A DNA stretch of 37,737 nt from positions 1 to 37,737 of the IMG/VR virus record IMGVR_UViG_3300045988_053781; one strand, 5' to 3'. Below, piece after piece: positions 13,757-31,709 of this stretch (position 1 is its first letter; each line of letters opens with the position of its first letter). Position numbers and translations under genes: made by a program. A model generated the notes under the pieces. It ran no database searches. It saw nothing but the letters and a program-made list of their open reading frames with translations, and had not been told where the DNA came from. This stretch comes from a virus.

Positions 13757-13819
13757 TTCTAAGGCGTTTTAAATTTTAGGGTATAGTTTTGAGGGGGAGC
13801 ATTCGAAAACGCCTTAGAA
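13757..13819. other. Perfect 14-bp inverted repeat with a 35-nt spacer, 7 bp past the integrase stop (attP candidate or int terminator)
   Basis: TTCTAAGGCGTTTT (13757-13770) and AAAACGCCTTAGAA (13806-13819). Confidence 0.4.
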
Positions 13820-13825
13820 CGAACG

Positions 13826-15358
13826 CTAGACACCTCTACAGCGAAATATGCCAGCGGGGAGAGGAACATAGAGCAATAGCAAGGGCGGAACAAGCTTAAT
13901 TTTGGATATAGTCGGATAGAGGGAGGACTTGACGACAGTATCCGAAAAGGATTTTTCCAAAATTATCCGTTCTGGGGGATCCACGTTGCCATTCGTCAAG
14001 TTTATGGCAATGACCACGTGGTCACGGTACAGCGTCACGCTGTGGATCACGGCGTTAAAAAATTTCTTTCGGTCGTCGGCACGGTCAAGGGCTTTCGTGA
14101 TCCAGCAGAAAAACTTTACGAAATCCTGCTGGGTGAGTTTCGGCGGCTCTGGGGGTGCTTGTTCCAACTGCTGCTTTTGCTGCTCTAGGTCTGTCAGCCG
14201 TGCCTGCAATGCTTCTGACTGCGGGCAAGCTATGAGGGCATTCACAGCACCCTGAATCTGTTTTTCGAGTGCTTGTATCTGCTTGCTGCGGTCTGGCTCG
14301 GGGCTGTCCTCGGCTAGATACATGCGATACAGACAATCGGCAAAGTCTGTCACATGCTCCGGCGTAAAGTAATCTGCTAGTGCTGCTATCACGGTGGACT
14401 CCACTTTTTCGCTGCTGATCGTCAAGCTGTGATCGTGCGGGAGCGTTTTGCAAGATTTTGCTATGCACGTGTAGTAAAAATATTTTCGCTGTACGGACGT
14501 ACCAACGACTTTTCGCCCGCATATGCCGCACTGTAGCAGCCCTGTGAGGGCGAACACGTGACCCGTGCGGTTTATACGGGCGTTGTGTGCAGAGTGCTTC
14601 AAACGCTCCTGTGCAGCGTCATAGAGGCTTTGTGGGACGATCTGCGGGCAAGTTTCAGGTTCGGCTATATCCGTGACATAGTACGTGCCCGTGTACTTGG
14701 GATTGTGCAGTATGTCGCTGACGCTGTAGCGTCTGAACAGGTTGCCCTGCCGCGTTCTGTGTCCGGCGGCGTTCAGCTTGTCTGCGATGCTTTGCAAAGT
14801 CGCTCCCCCTACGTACTGCGTGAAGATCTGCCGGACGTTGCTCGCTTCGACTTCGTCCACCGCAAGCCGTTTCTCGGTCTTGTGGTATCCATACGGGGCA
14901 CGGGTGAAGGTATTGCCCTTGATGATCGTTTCACGAATCCCCCGCTTGCACTTGCGGGAAAGTTCACGGGAAAAGTATTCGTCCATGGATTCCAGAAGAC
15001 CTTCGATCAGGATCCCCTCAGGGCTGTCCGTAATGCGTTCGGTGGCGGACAAGACCTTCACGCCACAGCGTTTTAGTTTTTGCTTATATACGGCACTGTC
15101 ATAGCGATTGCGGGCGAATCGGTCAAGCTTGTACACAAGCACGTACTCCCAGCAGCCGCGTTTGCTGTCGGAGATCATCTGCTGGAACTGGTCGCGGTGG
15201 TCGGTGGACGTTCCAGAGGTCGCACGGTCGATGTATTCAGCAACGATGTGGATCCCCTCAGCTTTTGCGAATTCCGCACACACGCGGCGTTGCCCTTCGA
15301 TTGACTGTTCCGTTTGCCGGTCGCTTGAATATCTGCCGTAAAAAACGGCTCGTTTCAT
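13826..15358 (-). CDS. Large serine recombinase (phage integrase)
   Basis: 510 aa. It has an N-terminal resolvase-type catalytic domain (AVFYGRYSSDRQ...IEGQ), a recombinase domain, a Cys cluster (CGICGRKVVG...YYYTC), and a coiled-coil Q/E-rich segment. RBS is AAGGGAG. Confidence 0.9.
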   Translation of the reverse strand: MKRAVFYGRYSSDRQTEQSIEGQRRVCAEFAKAEGIHIVAEYIDRATSGTSTDHRDQFQQMISDSKRGCWEYVLVYKLDRFARNRYDSAVYKQKLKRCGVKVLSATERITDSPEGILIEGLLESMDEYFSRELSRKCKRGIRETIIKGNTFTRAPYGYHKTEKRLAVDEVEASNVRQIFTQYVGGATLQSIADKLNAAGHRTRQGNLFRRYSVSDILHNPKYTGTYYVTDIAEPETCPQIVPQSLYDAAQERLKHSAHNARINRTGHVFALTGLLQCGICGRKVVGTSVQRKYFYYTCIAKSCKTLPHDHSLTISSEKVESTVIAALADYFTPEHVTDFADCLYRMYLAEDSPEPDRSKQIQALEKQIQGAVNALIACPQSEALQARLTDLEQQKQQLEQAPPEPPKLTQQDFVKFFCWITKALDRADDRKKFFNAVIHSVTLYRDHVVIAINLTNGNVDPPERIILEKSFSDTVVKSSLYPTISKIKLVPPLLLLYVPLPAGIFRCRGV

Positions 15359-15425
15359 ACGAAAAACTCCCTTCTGTTAATAATTCGGAAATACAAAGTG
15401 GAAAAAAGCACGCAAATGCGTAAAA

Positions 15426-15693
15426 ACGGTTCAAGATGGTTCAAGATGAAAAATCATCTTGAACCGGTGAAAATGACGCAATTTCGGGCTTTTTCGGCGT
15501 TTCGGTTCAAGTTCAAGATGCCCCTTATATTTATATATATTTATATATTATTTTATACTGTAGAATAGATAGTAATATATAATATAATATATATATAAAT
15601 AATAATGTTATCTTGAACTTGAACCGTTTTTCAAGAAAACGCCGAAATTGCGTGCAAAACAGCGGTTCAAGTCGGTTCAAGTTATCTTGAACC
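15426..15693. repeat. Array of eight GGTTCAAG octamers in both orientations around a 90-bp AT-rich core
   Basis: Direct copies are at 15428, 15438, 15504, 15664 and 15674. Inverted copies are at 15458, 15618 and 15686. Perfect 16-bp inverted arms at 15504-15519 and 15610-15625 flank the AT-rich segment 15520-15609. Confidence 0.75.
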
Positions 15694-15715
15694 GTTTTAC
15701 AGCATTTACCATATT

Positions 15716-15763
15716 ATCAATAAAAAATCCGCTTATAGCATCTGTTGACGCTCTAAACGGATT
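15716..15763 (-). terminator. Rho-independent terminator after immA
   Basis: On the minus strand, AAUCCGUUUA pairs with UAAGCGGAUU (10 bp including one G-U pair, 18-nt loop), followed by UUUUUAUU. Confidence 0.55.
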
Positions 15764-15772
15764 TTCTCTCAC

Positions 15773-16282
15773 CTACCTTCTATTGTAAATAAAGTTTTGA
15801 AATTGTATGAATAATTCATGTTCGAGAGGGTGTCTGATGAATTGATCATACTCCAGAAGCCAAAACAGCCGCTTGGAACGACGTTCGGCGGCAGCCTTGG
15901 ACACCCCGCAAATACCGGAGATTGTGACCGGATCGAGGGCATTTGCACCCAATAAAACGCATGCCGGCATGAGTACACCGGCAGCGAATCGGTCTGCCGC
16001 TGGCTCACAGTCGCCTAGTAAATAATGCCCTAACTCGTGTAAGATCGTGAAGCGTTTCTGGGTGTCGGTGTCCTTTGGATTCACGACAATTTGAACTTTT
16101 CCCGACTGCCTACGGATCAATTTTTCGGCTTCTCCACCCGTCAGAAATGCGTCTGTCAAACGGCACTCTATACCATATTTAGACGCTATCTGGACGGGCT
16201 TCACGGGCAGCTGTACAACCTTACAATCGAGTAAGCATTTCCAGCTGGCACGTAACGCAAGCTTGTAAATTTCACAATGCAT
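15773..16282 (-). CDS. immA: ImmA/IrrE-family zinc metallopeptidase (anti-repressor protease)
   Basis: HEXXH motif (ILHELGHYLL). It lies immediately downstream of the HTH repressor on the same strand. The ATG at 16282 with RBS GAGGTGA is preferred over the GTG at 16291. Confidence 0.8.
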   Translation of the reverse strand: MHCEIYKLALRASWKCLLDCKVVQLPVKPVQIASKYGIECRLTDAFLTGGEAEKLIRRQSGKVQIVVNPKDTDTQKRFTILHELGHYLLGDCEPAADRFAAGVLMPACVLLGANALDPVTISGICGVSKAAAERRSKRLFWLLEYDQFIRHPLEHELFIQFQNFIYNRR

Positions 16283-16285
16283 ATA

Positions 16286-16321
16286 ACTCACCTCTACGGT
16301 TATTATACCATAGAGGTGAGT
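16286..16321 (-). promoter_or_regulatory. Intercistronic hairpin that sequesters the immA ribosome-binding site
   Basis: Perfect 11-bp inverted repeat on the minus strand: ACTCACCTCTA (16321-16311) and TAGAGGTGAGT (16296-16286). The 3' arm contains the GAGGTGA RBS. The 14-nt loop carries TGGTATAAT. Confidence 0.45.
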
Positions 16322-16326
16322 TTTTA

Positions 16327-17046
16327 TTATGGATTGTCGTCTACAAGCGGGGCATTATCTGCCTTTTCGCCCTCTGCTACTGGGTAGCTTTTTACTTGGG
16401 TTCCGCTGCCGTTTTTCGCGGATTCCTTGACGGTTTCCCACTTGGTCAACGTGATTCCTTGCCGATCGGCTTCTTCTTGAATTGCCCGACGTAAGAAGTC
16501 AAGCACTGCCTGACGCTGTGCGTTCGGTAACTCCAGATACCGTCTGATTAGTATATCTTCCAGTTCTTCAACACCGGAATTCTTTACTACTGTGCTCAGA
16601 TCGTCACGTTCCGGAGCAGGTTCACACCCTAATAAATAATCCGTTGTAACTCCGAAATGATGTGATATTTTCGAAATCATTTCTATACTTAGTTCTCGTT
16701 TTCCGTATTCGTAGCTTGCATATGCGCCTTTTGGGATTCCGAGAAATTCCGCGGTTTTTGACATGGATTCACCTGATTTTTCACGCAGTAATTTCAATGT
16801 TTCATACCAATGTACTGTGTTGCCTTCTTGTAGATCTTCCATTGGATTCACGTCCGATCTACCTAACAAATAATCAGTTGTCACGCCAAAAAGATCTGCA
16901 AGTGCTACAATCGTATCCCCGTTTGGCTCCCGTAAACCGCATTCGTAATTTTTATATGTGGACTGTCCAACTCCGAGAGAATTAGCGATTTCTTTTTGTG
17001 TTTTTCCACTCTTTTTTCGTGCGGCTTTTAGATTTTCGGTATTCAT
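16327..17046 (-). CDS. immR: Phage repressor with two tandem XRE-type HTH domains (ImmR/CI-like)
   Basis: It has two HTH_3-like units (KTQKEIANSLGVGQSTYKNYECGLREP...TTDYLLG and MSKTAEFLGIPKGAYASYEYGKRELS...TTDYLLG). It is divergent from the early operon and followed by immA. Confidence 0.85.
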   Translation of the reverse strand: MNTENLKAARKKSGKTQKEIANSLGVGQSTYKNYECGLREPNGDTIVALADLFGVTTDYLLGRSDVNPMEDLQEGNTVHWYETLKLLREKSGESMSKTAEFLGIPKGAYASYEYGKRELSIEMISKISHHFGVTTDYLLGCEPAPERDDLSTVVKNSGVEELEDILIRRYLELPNAQRQAVLDFLRRAIQEEADRQGITLTKWETVKESAKNGSGTQVKSYPVAEGEKADNAPLVDDNP

Positions 17047-17069
17047 GCTATCACCTCCCTTCTTTTTAT

Positions 17070-17098
17070 ATTATAGCGCGAAATGAAGATTTTGTCAA
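17070..17098 (-). promoter_or_regulatory. Repressor (lysogenic) promoter
   Basis: Minus strand reads TTGACA-AAATCTTCATTTCGCGC-TATAAT (17-nt spacer), about 24 nt upstream of the immR ATG. Confidence 0.6.
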
Positions 17099-17182
17099 TA
17101 CAAAATTTGATTGATGCTACGTTTTGTGTGTGTTGCACAAAATAGTAGACTTTTTTTTGTATACTTTTTTGCAAAAAAAGGC

Positions 17183-17211
17183 TTGACATAGTCTTTATAC
17201 TATGCTATAAT
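17183..17211 (+). promoter_or_regulatory. Early (lytic) promoter
   Basis: TTGACA (17183-17188), 17 nt, TATAAT (17206-17211). It is divergent from the repressor promoter and preceded by the palindrome TTTTTTGCAAAAAA (17165-17178). Confidence 0.65.
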
Positions 17212-17286
17212 TGAATCATCGAAAGCACGATATGAAGACCGTCAACAAGAACGACTGAGCAAGAAATATCACGGAGGAATAAAGAA

Positions 17287-17622
17287 ATGAAATGGATTAA
17301 CGAAAGCAATGTGGAGTTCAATTGTGGAAACCATGCACTGTGTATTTTTAAGTTTGATAACTCTCGCGTGTGGTTTATGTTTGATGCACTTTGCAGCACA
17401 CAGACCGTAAGAACCGAAGCGAGAAAATTAGGTCAAGCGTATGGAGCGAAAGAAGTTACTATCAAATATCTTTGGGACGGTGGTAAAGGTACAGAACCCC
17501 GTGAAAATGTTGTGGATTTTTACTGTTACGCTGGGAAATATTATTTTCGAATCCCGTTGCTTGCACAAGGGTGGGAACGGTGTGAATTCAAAAATTTTGA
17601 GGATTCTGAACTTTTTGTATAA
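17287..17622 (+). CDS. Hypothetical early protein (first gene of the lytic operon; no HTH recognised)
   Basis: 111 aa with RBS GGAGGAA. Confidence 0.55.
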   Translation: MKWINESNVEFNCGNHALCIFKFDNSRVWFMFDALCSTQTVRTEARKLGQAYGAKEVTIKYLWDGGKGTEPRENVVDFYCYAGKYYFRIPLLAQGWERCEFKNFEDSELFV

Positions 17623-28086: not shown

Positions 28087-29970
28087 ATGTTTTTTCGTGG
28101 GTATGTAAAAATAAATGGAAAATCTGCAACGGAAAAATTTAAAAATGTCCCGTTGCGAACTCTGGACGAAGTGCAGGAGTGTGACAGCTACGGCGGTGTT
28201 CTGAGTGATGATGCGATTATGATTGACGTGGACGATTTCGAGCAATCAGAAATTTTGATGAACATCGTTGAAAAGGAAGAAATCCTCTGCCGTGTTTCCA
28301 AAACTGAACGCGGCAAACACTTCTTTTTCAAAAACTCGAAAATTCAAAAGTGTGCGACGGGTGCACATTTAGCATGTGGTTTGACGGCTGATGTGAAAAC
28401 CGGTAAGGCTAACAGCTACGCTATTTTGAAAAAAGACGGTCGCGAACGCGAAATAATTTATGATATTCTGGAAAATGAACAGTATCAGGAAATTCCCGCG
28501 TGGTTGTTTCCGGTAAAATCCAAAGTTAAGTTTGAAGATATGACGCAGGGTGACGGGCGAAATCAATCGCTATTCAACTACATTTTAACGCTGCAATCTG
28601 CGGGATTTTCGAAAGAAGAAGTACGCGAAACCCTCCATATCATAAACAACTACATTTTGAAAGAGCCGTTAAGTGAATATGAACTCATGACACTATCACG
28701 GGACGAAGCTTTTCTGAAAGAAACGTTCTATAATGGCAACAAGTTTCTTTTCGAAAAGTTCGCCCAGTTTATGAAGTCGGAATACCATATCATTCGCATT
28801 GACAACCAGTTACACATGTACGATGATGGAGTATATCGGGGCGGGTACTCGACGATTGAAGCGAAAATGATTAAACATATTCCGGCACTGAATAAGTCGA
28901 AACGCTCTGAGGTTCTGGCATATTTGGAACTACTCTGCGACAAAGAGGAAGAAATGTGTGATGCAGAATACATTGCATTTCGAAACGGCGTGTACAATAT
29001 CAACACAGGAAAATTACAGCCGTTTGATCCCAGCTTAATCATCTTAAATAAAATCGATTGGAATTTCAACCCAGTTGCATATAATTCTGACGTTGACAAA
29101 ATGCTCGATCGTTTAGCGTGTCATGATTCACAAATTCGGCAGCTTTTATGTGAAGCTGTTGGATACTGCTTTTATCGCCGGAACGAGTTGCGAAAAGCGT
29201 TTATCTTAACCGGTGAAAAACAAAACGGCAAAAGTACATATCTATCCTTGATTAGTGATCTTTTGGGAAGCCACAACGTCACAAATCTGGACTTGGGAGA
29301 GTTGGGGCAGCGGTTCAAAGCTGCGGAACTTTTCGGAAAACTTGCAAATATCGGTGACGACATAGGCGACGATTTTATTTCAAATCCCGTTATTTTCAAA
29401 AAGGTGGTTTCCGGTGATCCGGTCAACGTAGAAAGAAAAGGCGAAAATCCGTTCGATCTAAAAAACTATTCAAAATTCCTTTTTTCTGCGAATAACATTC
29501 CCCGTATTAAGGACAAGTCCGGTGCAGTTATCTCCCGTCTTGTGATTATCCCTTTTAACGCACGTTTCACAAAAAACGATCCTGATTATGATCCATATAT
29601 CAAGTACAAGCTGCGGACAGAGTCCGCAATGGAATACTTGGTGCAGCTTGGAATACAAGGTTTAAAGCGTGTTTTGAAAAATTACAGCTTTACGGAATCC
29701 GCCAGCGTCCAGAAAGCACTTACGGAATACGAAGAAGATAACAATCCGATCTTACTCTTTTTCAAAGAATTAGAACGAGATGATGTTGTACACAGATCAA
29801 CCCGTGACATTTATTCCCGCTATGGGCTGTTTTGTGCGGAAAACAATTTCAGTCCGATGTCAAATATCGAGTTTTCCAAAAGAATCAAACAGCAGTTTTC
29901 ACTTGAAATTGCAGACAAAAAGATTGGCGGGAAAAAATACCGTGTATTTGTAGAAAGGAAAGATGTATGA
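28087..29970 (+). CDS. Primase-helicase (N-terminal prim-pol-like domain plus a P4/D5-family NTPase domain)
   Basis: 627 aa. The acidic catalytic cluster is IMIDVDDFE. Walker A is LTGEKQNGKST. The C-terminal region is typical of phage/plasmid primases of the P4 family. Confidence 0.8.
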   Translation: MFFRGYVKINGKSATEKFKNVPLRTLDEVQECDSYGGVLSDDAIMIDVDDFEQSEILMNIVEKEEILCRVSKTERGKHFFFKNSKIQKCATGAHLACGLTADVKTGKANSYAILKKDGREREIIYDILENEQYQEIPAWLFPVKSKVKFEDMTQGDGRNQSLFNYILTLQSAGFSKEEVRETLHIINNYILKEPLSEYELMTLSRDEAFLKETFYNGNKFLFEKFAQFMKSEYHIIRIDNQLHMYDDGVYRGGYSTIEAKMIKHIPALNKSKRSEVLAYLELLCDKEEEMCDAEYIAFRNGVYNINTGKLQPFDPSLIILNKIDWNFNPVAYNSDVDKMLDRLACHDSQIRQLLCEAVGYCFYRRNELRKAFILTGEKQNGKSTYLSLISDLLGSHNVTNLDLGELGQRFKAAELFGKLANIGDDIGDDFISNPVIFKKVVSGDPVNVERKGENPFDLKNYSKFLFSANNIPRIKDKSGAVISRLVIIPFNARFTKNDPDYDPYIKYKLRTESAMEYLVQLGIQGLKRVLKNYSFTESASVQKALTEYEEDNNPILLFFKELERDDVVHRSTRDIYSRYGLFCAENNFSPMSNIEFSKRIKQQFSLEIADKKIGGKKYRVFVERKDV

Positions 29971-30362
29971 CTATCAATGACGTGATCGAAAGCACGGCAC
30001 GAAAGACTGCCCGAAGTGTCGTATCGGAAATGAAGCGAAAAGCCATGATTAAAAGTAACGCGTTGAACAGTTTCAAAAAGACCGAAAAGGTGCTGTACGA
30101 ATATCCGGCATGGAAGAAAAGCGACAGTGACGAAACGCGGAAATTTTGTGAACTGATCGAACGGGCACTGAAAGAAGTAGAGCATGATCCATATTACGAA
30201 CTGATCGAATTAAAGTATTTCGAACGCTGGACACACGAAAGGATTGCGGAATATTTCGATGTAGATGTATCTGTTATCAGCAAACGCCGAACAAAGCTGA
30301 TTGATAAACTACGCCCGATTATTTTTTCAGAGGACTTCATAAAAGAGTTGTTCGGACTATAA
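29967..30362 (+). CDS. Putative late-gene transcriptional activator (sigma-70 region-4-like HTH; RinA/ArpU-type position)
   Basis: 131 aa with ATGA coupling to the primase. LIELKYFERWTHERIAEYFDVDVSVISKRRTKLIDKL resembles a sigma region-4 HTH. It is the last gene before a strong terminator and the lysis and packaging genes. Confidence 0.45.
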   Translation: MTINDVIESTARKTARSVVSEMKRKAMIKSNALNSFKKTEKVLYEYPAWKKSDSDETRKFCELIERALKEVEHDPYYELIELKYFERWTHERIAEYFDVDVSVISKRRTKLIDKLRPIIFSEDFIKELFGL

Positions 30363-30372
30363 AAAAGAAATG

Positions 30373-30420
30373 AACGCCGTAGATGTGCGAAAATGCCGTC
30401 TACGGCGTTTTTGTGTTTAT
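30373..30420 (+). terminator. Rho-independent terminator ending the early/replication operon
   Basis: AACGCCGTAGA (30373-30383) pairs with TCTACGGCGTT (30399-30409), followed by TTTTGTGTTTATTT. Confidence 0.7.
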
Positions 30421-30518
30421 TTCACAATTTGTGCATAGCTAAGGCACAAATGCGGCACAATTTAATTTCTGTTTTGTTTGTACAGATTGGCGTATAATGG
30501 TTGACAGGTGATGAATGA

Positions 30519-30770
30519 ATGAATGCAGAAATAGTAACGTCAATTATTGTGTCCGCTGCCACACTGCTGGGAACGATTCTCACGGTGTGGAGTGGTAGCA
30601 AGTTGACAGCGTACAGAATAGAACAACTGGAAAAACGTGTCAATGAATACAACAACACGAAACTGCGAATGTATGAAGCTGAAAAGAAACAGGAAGTGGA
30701 CGAAAACCGGCTGAAAGTTTGTGAATACAGACTTTCGGACATTGAGGAAGAGATCAGACATGAAAAATAA
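30519..30770 (+). CDS. Membrane-anchored coiled-coil protein (holin-associated or lysis regulator candidate)
   Basis: 83 aa with one N-terminal transmembrane (TM) segment (IVTSIIVSAATLLGTILTVW) followed by a charged helix. It lies directly upstream of the holin. Confidence 0.4.
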   Translation: MNAEIVTSIIVSAATLLGTILTVWSGSKLTAYRIEQLEKRVNEYNNTKLRMYEAEKKQEVDENRLKVCEYRLSDIEEEIRHEK

Positions 30771-30945
30771 ATTGCTGGGGCTGCTTACAGTAAAAAGCAT
30801 TGTTACAATTTTGCTGACAATCGTGTTTTGTGTGTTGTCGTGGTTTGGCAGCATTGAGGGTGACAAATTTCTAACGATTTTTACAACCGTCATTGCGTTC
30901 TACTTTGGAACGCAAACTGAAAAGAACAGGAGTGAAACGAAATGA
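30760..30945 (+). CDS. Holin (two predicted TM segments)
   Basis: 61 aa from the ATG at 30760 (RBS GAGGAAGAG). TM segments are LLGLLTVKSIVTILLTIVFCVLSWF and FLTIFTTVIAFYFG, with a charged C-terminus. Its stop overlaps the endolysin start. Confidence 0.6.
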   Translation: MKNKLLGLLTVKSIVTILLTIVFCVLSWFGSIEGDKFLTIFTTVIAFYFGTQTEKNRSETK

Positions 30946-31709
30946 GTGTACAAGGTATTGATGTGTCAAGACATAACACGATCACAGACTTTCGAAAAGT
31001 CAAGGCATCTGGAATTGATTTTGTAATTATCCGTGCCGGTTATGGTCGGGAAATCTCCCAGAAAGATCCAAAGTTTGAAACCAACTATAAAAACGCAAAA
31101 GCGGCTGGGCTGAACGTGGGTGCATACTGGTACAGCTACGCACAGAGCGTGGAAGAAGCAAAGATTGAAGCAAAGGTTTGCTTACAGGCAATCAAGGGAA
31201 AGAAATTCGAATACCCGATTTATTTCGATCTGGAAGAAAATACCCAGCTGTCACGCGGCTCTGCGTTTTGCTCTGCACTGGTCAAGGCGTTCTGCGGCGA
31301 ACTCGAAAAGGCAGGATATTTTGCAGGGTTGTATATGTCAAGATACTATCTGCAAACCGTGATTTCAATCGACGTTGCGAAACGCTATGCGGTTTGGGTT
31401 GCAGAGTATAACGGTAAGTGTAACTACAGCGGCAACTATGGCATCTGGCAAAACAGTTCTACATGGCGTGTAAACGGGATCTCTGGAAACGTAGATCACG
31501 ATTATGCTTATATCGATTATCCCTCAATTATCAAGAAAAAGGGATTGAATGGATATAAGGCAGCGACTGCGAAAAAATCCATTGATACAATCGCCCGTGA
31601 AGTGATTGCGGGCAAGTGGGGCAATGGCAACGAACGGAAAAAGAAGTTGACGGCTGCGGGCTATGATTTTGCAACAGTTCAGAAGCGTGTAAACCAGTTA
31701 ATTCCGTAA
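30942..31709 (+). CDS. Endolysin: GH25 muramidase plus a CW_7 (Cpl-7-like) cell-wall-binding repeat
   Basis: GIDVSRHNTITDFRKVKASGIDFVIIRAGYG and GAYWYSYA are GH25 motifs. The C-terminal IAREVIAGKWGNGNERKKKLTAAGYDFATVQKRVNQL is a CW_7 motif. Confidence 0.85.
   Translation: MSVQGIDVSRHNTITDFRKVKASGIDFVIIRAGYGREISQKDPKFETNYKNAKAAGLNVGAYWYSYAQSVEEAKIEAKVCLQAIKGKKFEYPIYFDLEENTQLSRGSAFCSALVKAFCGELEKAGYFAGLYMSRYYLQTVISIDVAKRYAVWVAEYNGKCNYSGNYGIWQNSSTWRVNGISGNVDHDYAYIDYPSIIKKKGLNGYKAATAKKSIDTIAREVIAGKWGNGNERKKKLTAAGYDFATVQKRVNQLIP

What the first reader, a model, noticed from the sequence alone, without database searches (positions are those of the whole stretch)
15426..15693. Octamer iteron array (GGTTCAAG x8) symmetrically flanking a 90-bp AT-rich core between immA and int
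This 414-bp non-coding gap contains eight perfect copies of GGTTCAAG/CTTGAACC plus partial copies.
- Two modules have the same direct-direct-inverted pattern (15428, 15438, 15458 and 15664, 15674, 15686). The direct copies in each are exactly 10 bp apart.
- The first module forms a 12-bp-arm palindrome, GGTTCAAGATGA-AAAA-TCATCTTGAACC (15438-15465).
- Between the modules, perfect 16-bp inverted arms GGTTCAAGTTCAAGAT (15504-15519) and ATCTTGAACTTGAACC (15610-15625) enclose a segment that is almost entirely A/T (15520-15609).
- Further inverted arms TTTCGGCGTTT (15492-15502) and AAACGCCGAAA (15637-15647) lie outside these.

Iterons in both orientations around an easily melted core are the architecture of a replication origin. 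Phage P4 ori and crr use octamer iterons bound by its primase-helicase, and this phage encodes a P4-family primase-helicase at 28087. The region could instead be the attP/RDF-binding region or an int regulatory region.

A terminator at 15716-15763 separates it from immA, so int must be expressed from within this region.
Basis: partly seen in the sequence, partly recalled or inferred. Interest (0 to 1): 0.65.

Follow-up and report, generated by a model that had tools for sequence, protein, structure and literature searches.

The report
Phage replication origin beside integrase gene
The octamer-repeat array between the integrase and immA genes is most likely this temperate phage's replication origin, of the type known from staphylococcal pathogenicity islands, and it is not the phage attachment site.

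Summary
Eight of the window's 11 GGTTCAAG copies lie in 15428-15693, around the most AT-rich 90 nt of the genome (7.8% GC).

- **Same architecture elsewhere.** At least 40 other phage loci encoding a homologous P4-family primase-helicase carry it. These include Bacillus, Paenibacillus and Staphylococcus phages. The layout is outer iteron modules, spacers, inner inverted tandem pairs and an AT core. There it usually lies 0-5 kb downstream of the primase gene.
- **Covariation.** The short repeat differs between lineages (GTTCAAG, CATTCAA, TGTTACA, GGTTACA, TAAGACA and others). It tracks the last ~25 residues of the primase-helicase, which form the recognition helix and wing of a C-terminal winged helix. 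It does not track the rest of the protein.
- **Homology.** The protein is homologous to SaPI5 PriRep5 (PDB 7OLA). Published work shows that the C-terminal winged helix of SaPI Rep proteins binds such iterons around an AT-rich centre.
- **attP is excluded.** Four integrated prophages keep the array intact. The junction lies about 1.5 kb away, inside the 3' end of int (about 13914-13924).

Verdict: a SaPI/P4-type iteron origin, unusual in lying 12.4 kb from its initiator gene, in the lysogeny module. It is a new member of a known kind. No experiment supports this yet.

The parts
15428..15465 (+). int-proximal outer iteron module. GGTTCAAG at 15428 and 15438 (direct, 10 bp apart) and an inverted copy at 15458. 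The last two form the palindrome GGTTCAAGATGA-AAAA-TCATCTTGAACC.
   Evidence: I17. Conserved in L002, L014, L020, L027 and L106-108.
15476..15487 (-). Spacer motif CCGAAATTGCGT, copy 1. It lies within the 38-nt spacer between the outer module and the inner arm.
   Evidence: Exact copies occur only at 15476(-) and 15642(+) in the whole window. The motif is conserved in the L020/L027 and L015 lineages. It is absent from the immR operator region 17047-17286.
15504..15519 (+). Inner arm: overlapping tandem pair GGTTCAAGTTCAAGAT, pointing into the core.
   Evidence: (I2)
15520..15609 (.). AT-rich core, the proposed DNA-unwinding element. It is polar: the int-facing end reads ...TATAAAATAATATATAAATATATATAAATATAAGGGGC.
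   Evidence: It contains the lowest-GC 90 nt of the genome (7.8% GC). It is 86-88% A+T. Its orientation relative to the downstream gene is conserved in all relatives. TA-run length varies between the window and L002.
15610..15625 (-). Inner arm, the inverted tandem pair ATCTTGAACTTGAACC.
   Evidence: I2
15642..15653 (+). Spacer motif CCGAAATTGCGT, copy 2, inverted relative to copy 1.
15664..15693 (+). immA-proximal outer iteron module. GGTTCAAG at 15664 and 15674 (10 bp apart) and an inverted copy at 15686.
15724..15765 (-). Hairpin plus T-run: the intrinsic terminator of the immR-immA operon. It bounds the element.
   Evidence: I9, 19-nt arms, 84%. The minus-strand sequence shows the T-run. 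The simple scan did not flag it because of stem mismatches.
15403..15422 (-). Small hairpin ACGCAnnnGCGT plus T-run between the array and the int ribosome-binding site. It is also a degenerate third copy of the spacer motif.
   Evidence: terminator-like, 5-bp stem; I7
28087..29970 (+). Primase-helicase, the proposed initiator: primase domain with PriCT_1, D5_N, an SF3 helicase (DUF5906) and a C-terminal winged helix.
   Evidence: Pfam. TIGR01613, P4-family primase, 192.6 bits against a cutoff of 108.7. PriRep5 7OLA, E 1.1e-44, residues 242-601.
29878..29952 (+). Codons 598-622 (KRIKQQFSLEIADKKIGGKKYRVFV): the end of the recognition helix plus the beta-hairpin wing. This segment covaries with the iteron sequence.
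   Evidence: In the AlphaFold model H593-604, E606-613 and E616-623 have pLDDT of about 73-90.
13826..15358 (-). Large serine integrase, the gene immediately downstream of the element. attP lies in its 3' end at about 13914-13924, not in the array.
   Evidence: Pfam Resolvase+Recombinase+Zn_ribbon_recom. Junction mapping.
29967..30362 (+). Sigma-70 region-4-like gene. Its homologue follows the origin in relatives, but here it abuts the primase gene directly, which marks the vacated canonical origin position.
   Evidence: 64% identical to L061:13371-13766, which lies just after that phage's GTTCAAG array.

Best explanation
The region 15426-15693 is the phage's origin of replication, of the SaPI/P4 iteron type.

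**Proposed mechanism**
- The C-terminal winged-helix domain of the phage's own primase-helicase (28087-29970) recognises the (C)GGTTCAAG(AT) iterons.
- The two inner tandem pairs point toward each other across a 90-bp core of about 8-13% GC.
- Protein bound on both sides assembles two SF3 hexamers that melt the core and move apart, with the primase domain of the same protein priming.
- The outer modules are two copies 10 bp apart on one face of the helix plus one inverted copy. They would act as extra high-occupancy loading or anchoring sites.

**Shown here**
- The repeat architecture.
- Its conservation across many phages that share the initiator family.
- The covariation of iteron sequence with the initiator's wing.
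- Homology of the initiator to PriRep5.
- Exclusion of attP.

**Inferred**
- Actual binding, melting and initiation.
- Double-hexamer loading.
- Any role of the CCGAAATTGCGT spacer motif.

**What is unusual.** The origin sits 12.4 kb from the initiator gene, between the immR-immA operon and int. The canonical place would be just after the primase-helicase gene.
For: 1. **Clustering.** The clustering is far beyond chance and includes the genome's AT extreme.
2. **Same architecture elsewhere.** An exact-motif scan and a primase-based scan of IMG/VR found the same architecture with GTTCAAG in at least 18 contigs. Their primase-helicase is only 50-60% identical to the window's. The array usually lies 0.5-5 kb downstream of that gene and no integrase is adjacent.
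3. **Other motifs, same layout.** Homologue loci with other clustered motifs keep the same layout right after the primase gene. These include cultured Bacillus phage BMBtp15 (GGTTACAG), Paenibacillus phage Wanderer (TAACAGAT) and Staphylococcus phage PI-Sepi-HH2 (TAAGACA).
4. **Covariation.**
   - All 19 loci with a GTTCAAG array have the wing D[KR]K[IV]xGxK[YR]R. None of the 21 loci with another motif has it (Fisher p 7.6e-12, loci not independent).
   - L069 and L075 are 78% identical over the protein body but 24% in the wing, and their motifs differ.
   - The window and L082 are 50% identical in the body and 64% in the wing, and share the motif.
   - The match also holds where the origin is unlinked from the gene: the window, L111 and L112/L113.
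5. **Initiator homology.** The initiator is a P4-family primase (TIGR01613) and a homologue of SaPI5 PriRep5 (7OLA, E 1e-44).
6. **Published mechanism.** PMC9371898 states that the C-terminal winged helix of SaPI Rep proteins binds 5-6-nt iterons. It describes 6-12 of them around a central AT-rich region, with at least two on each side pointing in opposite directions. It proposes two self-loaded hexamers.
7. **Structure model.** The AlphaFold model shows a helix-helix-helix-beta-hairpin winged helix at 554-623. The covarying residues lie on helix 3 and the wing.
8. **Integrated prophages.** They keep the element intact.
Against: - There is no experimental evidence of binding or replication for this phage or any relative in the family.
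- In most relatives the origin lies next to the 3' end of the primase gene. Co-inheritance by linkage could therefore produce part of the wing-motif association. The unlinked lineages argue against this but are few and related to each other.
- The Fisher test counts related loci as independent.
- The element is not next to the initiator gene here, which is a defining SaPI feature.
- The L015 lineage has a close lysogeny module but a different repeat. Its primase could not be retrieved, so that prediction is untested.
- L105 (primase 77% identical, different wing) shows no array within 10 kb, which is uninformative.
- The helicase core of the structure model is poorly predicted.
Confidence: 0.8

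Rival explanations
1. The array is mainly a regulatory operator region for int, and perhaps insulates int from the immR-immA operon. A phage DNA-binding protein, possibly the primase-helicase itself, occupies the iterons and controls a promoter in or near the AT core. Replication would start elsewhere.
For: - int has no other upstream space, and a terminator separates it from immA.
- Weak promoter-like matches pointing toward int lie at 15634-15605 and 15611-15584.
- In other phages the element also sits directly upstream of the first gene of a block, a sigma-r4/DUF1492-like regulator.
- A conserved polar motif (CTAAAAATAAG.ATATA) lies at the gene-facing end of the core.
Against: - Promoter-like matches are no more frequent than in shuffles: 5 against 2.0 +/- 1.6, all 9 of 12.
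- The same element precedes unrelated genes (int, or a sigma-like gene) but always accompanies the primase-helicase family.
- No other iteron cluster exists in the window that could serve as the origin.
- Regulation and origin function are not mutually exclusive.
Confidence: 0.1
2. It is an auxiliary cis-acting replication element like P4 crr, or a second origin like SPP1 oriR, rather than the primary start site.
For: - L082 carries two arrays, one beside its cI-like repressor and one after the primase gene. L069 has a partial second cluster, and the L044/L100 array also lies by a cI-like repressor.
- The lysogeny-module position is therefore a recurrent second site in the family.
Against: - The window has only this one cluster. 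The canonical position after the primase gene is occupied directly by the sigma-like gene.
- The element has the full architecture, including the AT core.
Confidence: 0.06
3. It is attP, the recombination site of the adjacent large serine integrase, or a recombination-directionality-factor binding region.
For: - It is adjacent to int.
- It has inverted repeats.
- Several metagenomic contigs end inside the AT core (L001, L021).
Against: - Integrated prophages keep the whole array: L002 (window species) and L106, L107 and L108 (L020 lineage, on 267-kb, 78-kb and 38-kb contigs with bacterial genes beyond int).
- Homology between the phage and prophage forms ends at window 13914 on one side and 13924 on the other, inside the int 3' end.
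- Contigs also end in the core in phages with no integrase nearby (L025, L042).
- The element is about five times longer than a serine-integrase attP.
Confidence: 0.01
4. It is a packaging (cos/pac) site, a partition centromere or an invertible promoter switch.
For: - Arrays of short repeats around an AT-rich segment occur in cos regions and in parC-type centromeres.
- Perfect inverted arms around about 90 bp resemble an inverton.
- Some contigs end in the core.
Against: - It is 18 kb from terS/terL in the window.
- In Paenibacillus phage Wanderer the deposited linear genome ends about 1.7-1.9 kb beyond the homologous array.
- No ParA or ParB gene was seen among the proteins scanned with Pfam.
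- The core has the same orientation in all 10 or more genomes examined.
- The repeat covaries with the primase-helicase wing.
Confidence: 0.03

Closest known systems
SaPI replication origin with its Rep/PriRep initiator (Staphylococcus aureus pathogenicity islands; Ubeda 2007 and 2012 as cited in PMC9371898)
   Same: - Short iterons in two sets flanking a central AT-rich region.
- At least two iterons on each side pointing in opposite directions.
- The initiator is a self-loading SF3 helicase, fused to a primase in SaPI5, with a C-terminal winged helix that gives island-specific iteron recognition.
- The window's protein is a sequence homologue of PriRep5 (7OLA, E 1e-44).
   Different: - It is in a complete temperate siphophage genome, not a satellite.
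- The iteron is longer, 7-8 nt with an AT extension.
- It has extra structure: outer direct-direct-inverted modules, spacers of about 38 bp with their own conserved motif, overlapping tandem inner pairs and a polar core.
- It is not next to the initiator gene but 12.4 kb away, between immA and int.
Phage P4 ori and crr bound by the alpha primase-helicase (from established knowledge, not re-read here)
   Same: - P4-family primase-helicase (TIGR01613).
- Octamer iterons recognised by a C-terminal winged-helix domain.
- The origin can lie away from the 3' end of the gene.
   Different: - P4 needs two separated cis regions, ori and crr. The window has one cluster.
- The P4 iteron sequence is unrelated.
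- P4 lacks the symmetric inner-pair and AT-core layout seen here.
Origins of dairy Streptococcus thermophilus phages (Sfi21/7201 type), non-coding repeat regions downstream of the primase gene (recalled from memory, not checked here)
   Same: - The primase is a distant homologue (about 30% identity over residues 234-612).
- The origin is a non-coding repeat region following the primase gene, as in most relatives found here.
   Different: - I did not examine their repeat architecture.
- Their position differs from the window's.
Origins of eukaryotic SF3-helicase viruses (SV40 large T antigen, papillomavirus E1)
   Same: - Short recognition motifs in inverted orientation beside easily melted AT-rich DNA.
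- They load two SF3 hexamers head to head.
   Different: - This is an analogy of design only.
- The origin-binding domains are different and there is no sequence relationship in the DNA element.

Membership tests
SaPI-type iteron origin (Rep/PriRep) | 6-12 short iterons | tested here: met
   There are 8 perfect octamers and 10 heptamers in 266 bp.
SaPI-type iteron origin (Rep/PriRep) | Central AT-rich region with iterons on both sides, at least two per side pointing in opposite directions | tested here: met
   Inner tandem pairs at 15504-15519 and 15610-15625 are inverted around a 90-bp core. That core holds the genome's lowest-GC 90-nt stretch, 7.8% GC.
SaPI-type iteron origin (Rep/PriRep) | Located immediately downstream of the initiator gene | tested here: not met
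   In the window it is 12.4 kb from the primase-helicase gene, between immA and int. The feature is met in at least 20 relatives.
SaPI-type iteron origin (Rep/PriRep) | Cognate initiator is an SF3 helicase with a C-terminal winged-helix domain, homologous to Rep/PriRep | tested here: met
   Match to 7OLA with E 1.1e-44 over residues 242-601. Pfam D5_N, DUF5906 and Pox_D5. Modelled winged helix at 554-623.
SaPI-type iteron origin (Rep/PriRep) | Initiator binds its own iterons specifically, and the origin supports replication | not testable with these tools
   There is indirect support only, from the wing-iteron covariation.
P4 ori/crr system | P4-family primase-helicase initiator | tested here: met
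   TIGR01613 scores 192.6 bits against a cutoff of 108.7.
P4 ori/crr system | Two separated iteron regions (ori and crr), both required in cis | tested here: not met
   The window has a single cluster. The other three octamer copies are isolated. Relative L082 does have two arrays.
attP of a large serine integrase | The prophage-host junction falls within the site | tested here: not met
   The junctions are at window 13914 and 13924, and the array is intact in L002 and L106-L108.
Invertible promoter (inverton) | The segment between the inverted repeats is found in both orientations | tested here: not met
   The orientation is the same in the window, L002, L014, L020, L027 and L106-108 and in more distant loci. 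Read-level data were not available.
Repressor (ImmR) operator array | The same motif is present at the immR/early divergent promoter | tested here: not met
   Neither GGTTCAAG nor CCGAAATTGCGT occurs in 17047-17286.

The most novel reading that the evidence does not exclude
Placing the origin in the lysogeny module is functional rather than incidental. In the prophage it lies only about 1.5 kb from the prophage-host junction and directly upstream of int.

- Initiator loading at the array after induction could couple replication to int expression and excision.
- It could also start in-situ bidirectional replication that runs straight into neighbouring host DNA before excision, as in lateral transduction by staphylococcal phages. 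In the window species that neighbouring DNA belongs to another phage-like element.

The recurrence of a second array beside the repressor gene in L082, L044 and L069 suggests the position is selected.
Probability: 0.12. Interest if true: 0.65.

Novelty: new member of a known kind. Interest (0 to 1): 0.45.

Why it matters
- **Annotation.** It gives a concrete, testable origin for a widespread group of uncultured gut Firmicutes phages. It also covers cultured Bacillus, Paenibacillus and Staphylococcus phages whose records, in the regions examined, carry no origin annotation.
- **Reach of the design.** The SaPI Rep-ori design appears not to be special to satellites. It looks like the ordinary origin type of a large phage family.
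- **Recognition data.** The natural series of iteron variants paired with wing variants in otherwise similar proteins is a ready-made data set. It could be used to work out how this winged helix reads DNA, and to design orthogonal replicons.
- **Movable unit.** The unlinked position here shows that origin and initiator gene can be separated.

Tried and rejected
- **Rfam and tRNA scans** of the window found nothing.
- **blastn of 13800-17300 against GenBank phages** gave only short integrase-internal matches.
- **Full-text search for the octamer** returned only unrelated primer hits.
- **Integrase scan of GTDB genomes** found only distant relatives and no close prophage. Integrated forms came instead from cluster members of the integrase.
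- **ImmR as the binder** was rejected because its own regulatory region lacks both motifs.
- **An inverton** was rejected because the core orientation is constant.
- **attP** was rejected by junction mapping.
- **The L015 lineage primase** could not be reached. That lineage has the same lysogeny module but a different repeat. Its primase was not among the top 120 homologues. A Dam-based IMG/VR scan found no member of that lineage.
- **L105**, a prophage on a 397-kb NCBI contig with a 77% identical primase and a different wing, has no array within 10 kb. It was uninformative.
- **(AACAGCGGCAATCGG)n clusters** in several loci are coding tandem repeats and irrelevant.
- **The two SaPI origin papers** (PMC1964853, PMC3804134) are not held. 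Their content is cited through PMC9371898.

Full report
**1. Observation**

The gap 15359-15772 (414 bp) lies between a large serine integrase and immA/immR.
- The integrase is at 13826-15358 on the minus strand, with Pfam Resolvase, Recombinase and Zn_ribbon_recom.
- immA is at 15773-16291 (Peptidase_M78) and immR at 16327-17046 (two HTH_3 domains).

The repeat claims all hold.
- GGTTCAAG occurs 11 times in the window and 8 of these lie in 15428-15693. Shuffles give 1.4 copies for the entire window.
- The heptamer GTTCAAG occurs 10 times in 15429-15692.
- The core between the perfect 16-nt inner arms contains the lowest-GC 90 nt of the genome, at 7.8% GC. The minimum elsewhere is 23%.
- A hairpin plus T-run after immA (15724-15765, minus strand) is present.

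The window corresponds to an ENA scaffold of 37,782 bp (L013). The 45-bp excess of the scaffold over the window, and the window ends falling inside the structural gene block, suggest a circular assembly of the free phage form. This is my inference.

**2. It is not attP**

The integrase clusters contain shorter called products (479-487 aa against 509-510 aa) on long contigs. Three of these are integrated prophages of the L020 lineage.
- They are L106 (267-kb contig), L107 (78 kb) and L108 (38 kb).
- The L020 integrase is 58% identical to the window's and that lineage has the same octamer array.
- Ordinary bacterial genes lie beyond int.
- All three keep the complete array. They diverge from the free phage form only at codon 472-473 of int.

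For the window's own species, IMG/VR contig 3300045988_055272 holds both junctions.
- Homology to the window stops at 13914 on the int side (L002).
- It stops at 13924 on the other side (L154).
- The shared core is therefore about 11 bp, inside the 3' end of int and 1.5 kb from the array.
- The array in that prophage is intact.

Contigs that end inside the AT core (L001, L021) at first looked like junction evidence. The same happens in phages where the element has no integrase beside it (L025, L042). It is more likely an assembly problem at a TA-rich core of variable length.

**3. It travels with the replication module**

- An exact scan for the inner arm (CATCTTGAACTTGAACCG) in IMG/VR found the same layout in contigs with quite different neighbours.
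- tblastn showed that these share the window's SNF2 helicase, its 619-aa polymerase-like protein and above all its primase-helicase.
- A scan with an alignment of two primase-helicases returned 70 loci at 43-98% identity.
- In 18 of them a GTTCAAG array of 8-12 copies with the full layout lies 0.5-5 kb downstream of the primase gene. The layout is outer module, spacer of about 45 bp, inner tandem pair, AT core of 80-100 bp, inverted inner pair, spacer, outer module.
- The array sits directly upstream of a DUF1492 or sigma-70-region-4-like gene.
- L061 has a primase 76% identical to the window's and shows this canonical order. Its sigma-like gene is 64% identical to window 29967-30362, which in the window abuts the primase gene with nothing between.
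- So in the window lineage the origin is missing from the canonical site and present in the lysogeny module.
- That position recurs. L082 has a second array beside its S24 cI-like repressor, L044/L100 have one beside a cI-like repressor, and L069 has a partial second cluster.

**4. The repeat changes and the layout stays**

A de novo search for clustered 7-mers and a search for tandem pair, AT core and inverted tandem pair showed the same architecture with other motifs.

| Motif | Loci |
|---|---|
| GGTTACAG | Bacillus phage BMBtp15 |
| TAACAGAT | Paenibacillus phage Wanderer |
| TAAGACA | Staphylococcus phage PI-Sepi-HH2, L091 |
| GGTTACAC | L101, L078 |
| TGTTACA | L068, L070, L075, L079, L085 |
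| CATTCAA | L045 and seven others |
| TCAAGATG | L074 |
| GGAACAGATG | L049 |

In most of these, including the three cultured phages, the array lies just after the primase gene.

Two features outside the iterons are conserved across these classes.
- A polar motif at the gene-facing end of the core, CTAAAAATAAG.ATATA.
- A spacer motif, AAA(C/G)CCTTGA.

In the window, L020 and L015 lineages the spacer motif is instead CCGAAATTGCGT. It is present in the window only at 15476(-) and 15642(+).

**5. Covariation with the initiator**

Seventy primase-helicases were aligned. The iteron class tracks the last ~25 residues.

| Iteron class | Wing sequence |
|---|---|
| GTTCAAG | xEIxDKKIxGKKYR |
| CATTCAA | RVENKWLNGKKHR |
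| TGTTACA | QVVVKRIGNKTHR |
| GGTTACA | KSVVKKIDGKPIR |

Further classes follow the same pattern.
- The wing pattern D[KR]K[IV]xGxK[YR]R is present in 19 of 19 loci with a GTTCAAG array and in 0 of 21 loci with another motif. The loci are related, so the p value of 7.6e-12 overstates independence.
- The signal is not simply phylogeny. L069 (GTTCAAG) and L075 (TGTTACA) are 78% identical over residues 1-590 but 24% over 598-622. The window and L082 are 50% and 64% identical and share the motif.
- At every level of body identity, same-motif pairs have higher wing identity than different-motif pairs.
- Because origin and wing-coding DNA are usually adjacent, linkage could contribute. However, the match persists in the window, L111 and L112/L113, where they are 12-14 kb apart.

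**6. What the initiator is**

- Pfam finds PriCT_1, D5_N, DUF5906 and Pox_D5.
- NCBIfam TIGR01613, the P4-family primase, scores 192.6 bits against a cutoff of 108.7.
- The only PDB relative by sequence is 7OLA/7OM0 (E 1.1e-44, residues 242-601). That entry is PriRep5 of SaPI5.
- PMC9371898 summarises the biology of SaPI origins. The C-terminal winged helix of Rep recognises 5-6-nt iterons. Six to twelve of them lie immediately downstream of rep around a central AT-rich region. At least two on each side point in opposite directions. Binding and melting need no ATP. Two hexamers are thought to self-load, one on each side.
- An AlphaFold model of the window protein has mean pLDDT 71.6. Its helicase core is poor, but residues 550-627 score 73-90. 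It shows helices 554-561, 572-585 and 593-604 followed by a beta hairpin at 606-613 and 616-623, which is a winged helix. The covarying residues are the end of helix 3 and the wing.

**7. Mechanism proposed**

The winged helix of the primase-helicase binds the iterons. The inner pairs face each other across the core and position two hexamers. The core melts and the primase domain primes.
- Shown: the architecture, its conservation, the covariation, the homology and the exclusion of attP.
- Inferred: binding, melting, the number of hexamers, and the roles of the outer modules and the spacer motif.
- Open: whether int is transcribed from inside the element. Promoter-like matches are weak and no more frequent than in shuffles. 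A small hairpin plus T-run lies between the array and the int ribosome-binding site (15409-15422).

**8. Comparison and novelty**

By design and by initiator homology this is a SaPI/P4-type iteron origin. One SaPI-defining feature is not met here: it is not adjacent to the initiator gene. The P4-defining ori+crr pair is also absent. Other differences are the phage context, longer iterons, the more elaborate module structure and the lysogeny-module position.

I rate it a new member of a known kind. The added value is that the family is large, apparently unannotated, and offers a natural wing-iteron specificity series. Confidence in the origin reading is about 0.8, and all of the evidence is computational.

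Noticed in passing
window 13905-13925 (int 3' end); L002 5430-5450; L154 11600-11625: attP of the serine integrase lies inside the integrase gene's own 3' end. Integration replaces roughly the last 30 codons. The free form encodes 510 aa. In L002 the frame reads on into the flank (512-aa ORF), and several cluster members are 480 aa. The Int C-terminus therefore differs between phage and prophage.
   Followed up: partly
L002 5338-6816 (-) and L154 beyond 11620 (IMG/VR contig 3300045988_055272): In this contig the window-type prophage is inserted into a large-terminase gene of another phage-like element. The TerL ORF is cut within its nuclease domain, at profile position 215 of 286. The remaining C-terminal coding sequence reads off the far side of the other junction. 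This looks like one phage integrating into, and disrupting, another phage's packaging gene. L020-lineage relatives integrate next to ordinary bacterial genes instead.
   Followed up: partly
L001 1-12, L021 1-46, L025 1-57, L042 end, L022 start: Five independent metagenomic contigs end in the element. Four end inside its AT-rich core and L022 starts at the left inner arm. They include phages with no adjacent integrase. An assembly failure at a TA-rich core of variable length is the probable cause. Real DNA ends or replication intermediates were not excluded.
   Followed up: partly
L082 131-318 and 16627-16921; L069 17-89; L044 70-330: Some relatives carry two origin-like arrays, one beside the cI-like repressor and one after the primase gene. 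This is reminiscent of P4 ori/crr or SPP1 oriL/oriR.
   Followed up: partly
window 15476-15487 (-), 15642-15653 (+), degenerate copy 15403-15421: A second repeated motif, CCGAAATTGCGT, sits in both spacers in inverted orientation and occurs nowhere else in the genome. It is conserved in the L020 and L015 lineages. Most other lineages have AAA(C/G)CCTTGA-type palindromic spacers at the same place. The binding partner is unknown.
   Followed up: partly
L015 1980-2250: A phage with a closely related lysogeny module (ImmR 77%, Int 63%) has a shorter array at the same position built from a different repeat (CTGACAGATG / ATCTTGTCAA). It keeps the ACGCAATTTCGG spacer motif. Its primase-helicase could not be retrieved.
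   Followed up: partly
window 30363-30941 and 30942-31709: A strong terminator follows the sigma-like gene. Small membrane-protein ORFs and a lysin homologue then lie between the replication and packaging modules. The lysin matches the Glyco_hydro_25/Peptidase_M15 gene of L016.
   Followed up: no
L090 1456-1730 (also L050, L055, L059, L070, L072): There is a long coding tandem repeat of 15 bp, (AACAGCGGCAATCGG)n, about 8 kb upstream of the primase gene in several relatives. It encodes a pentapeptide repeat and is unrelated to the origin.
   Followed up: yes
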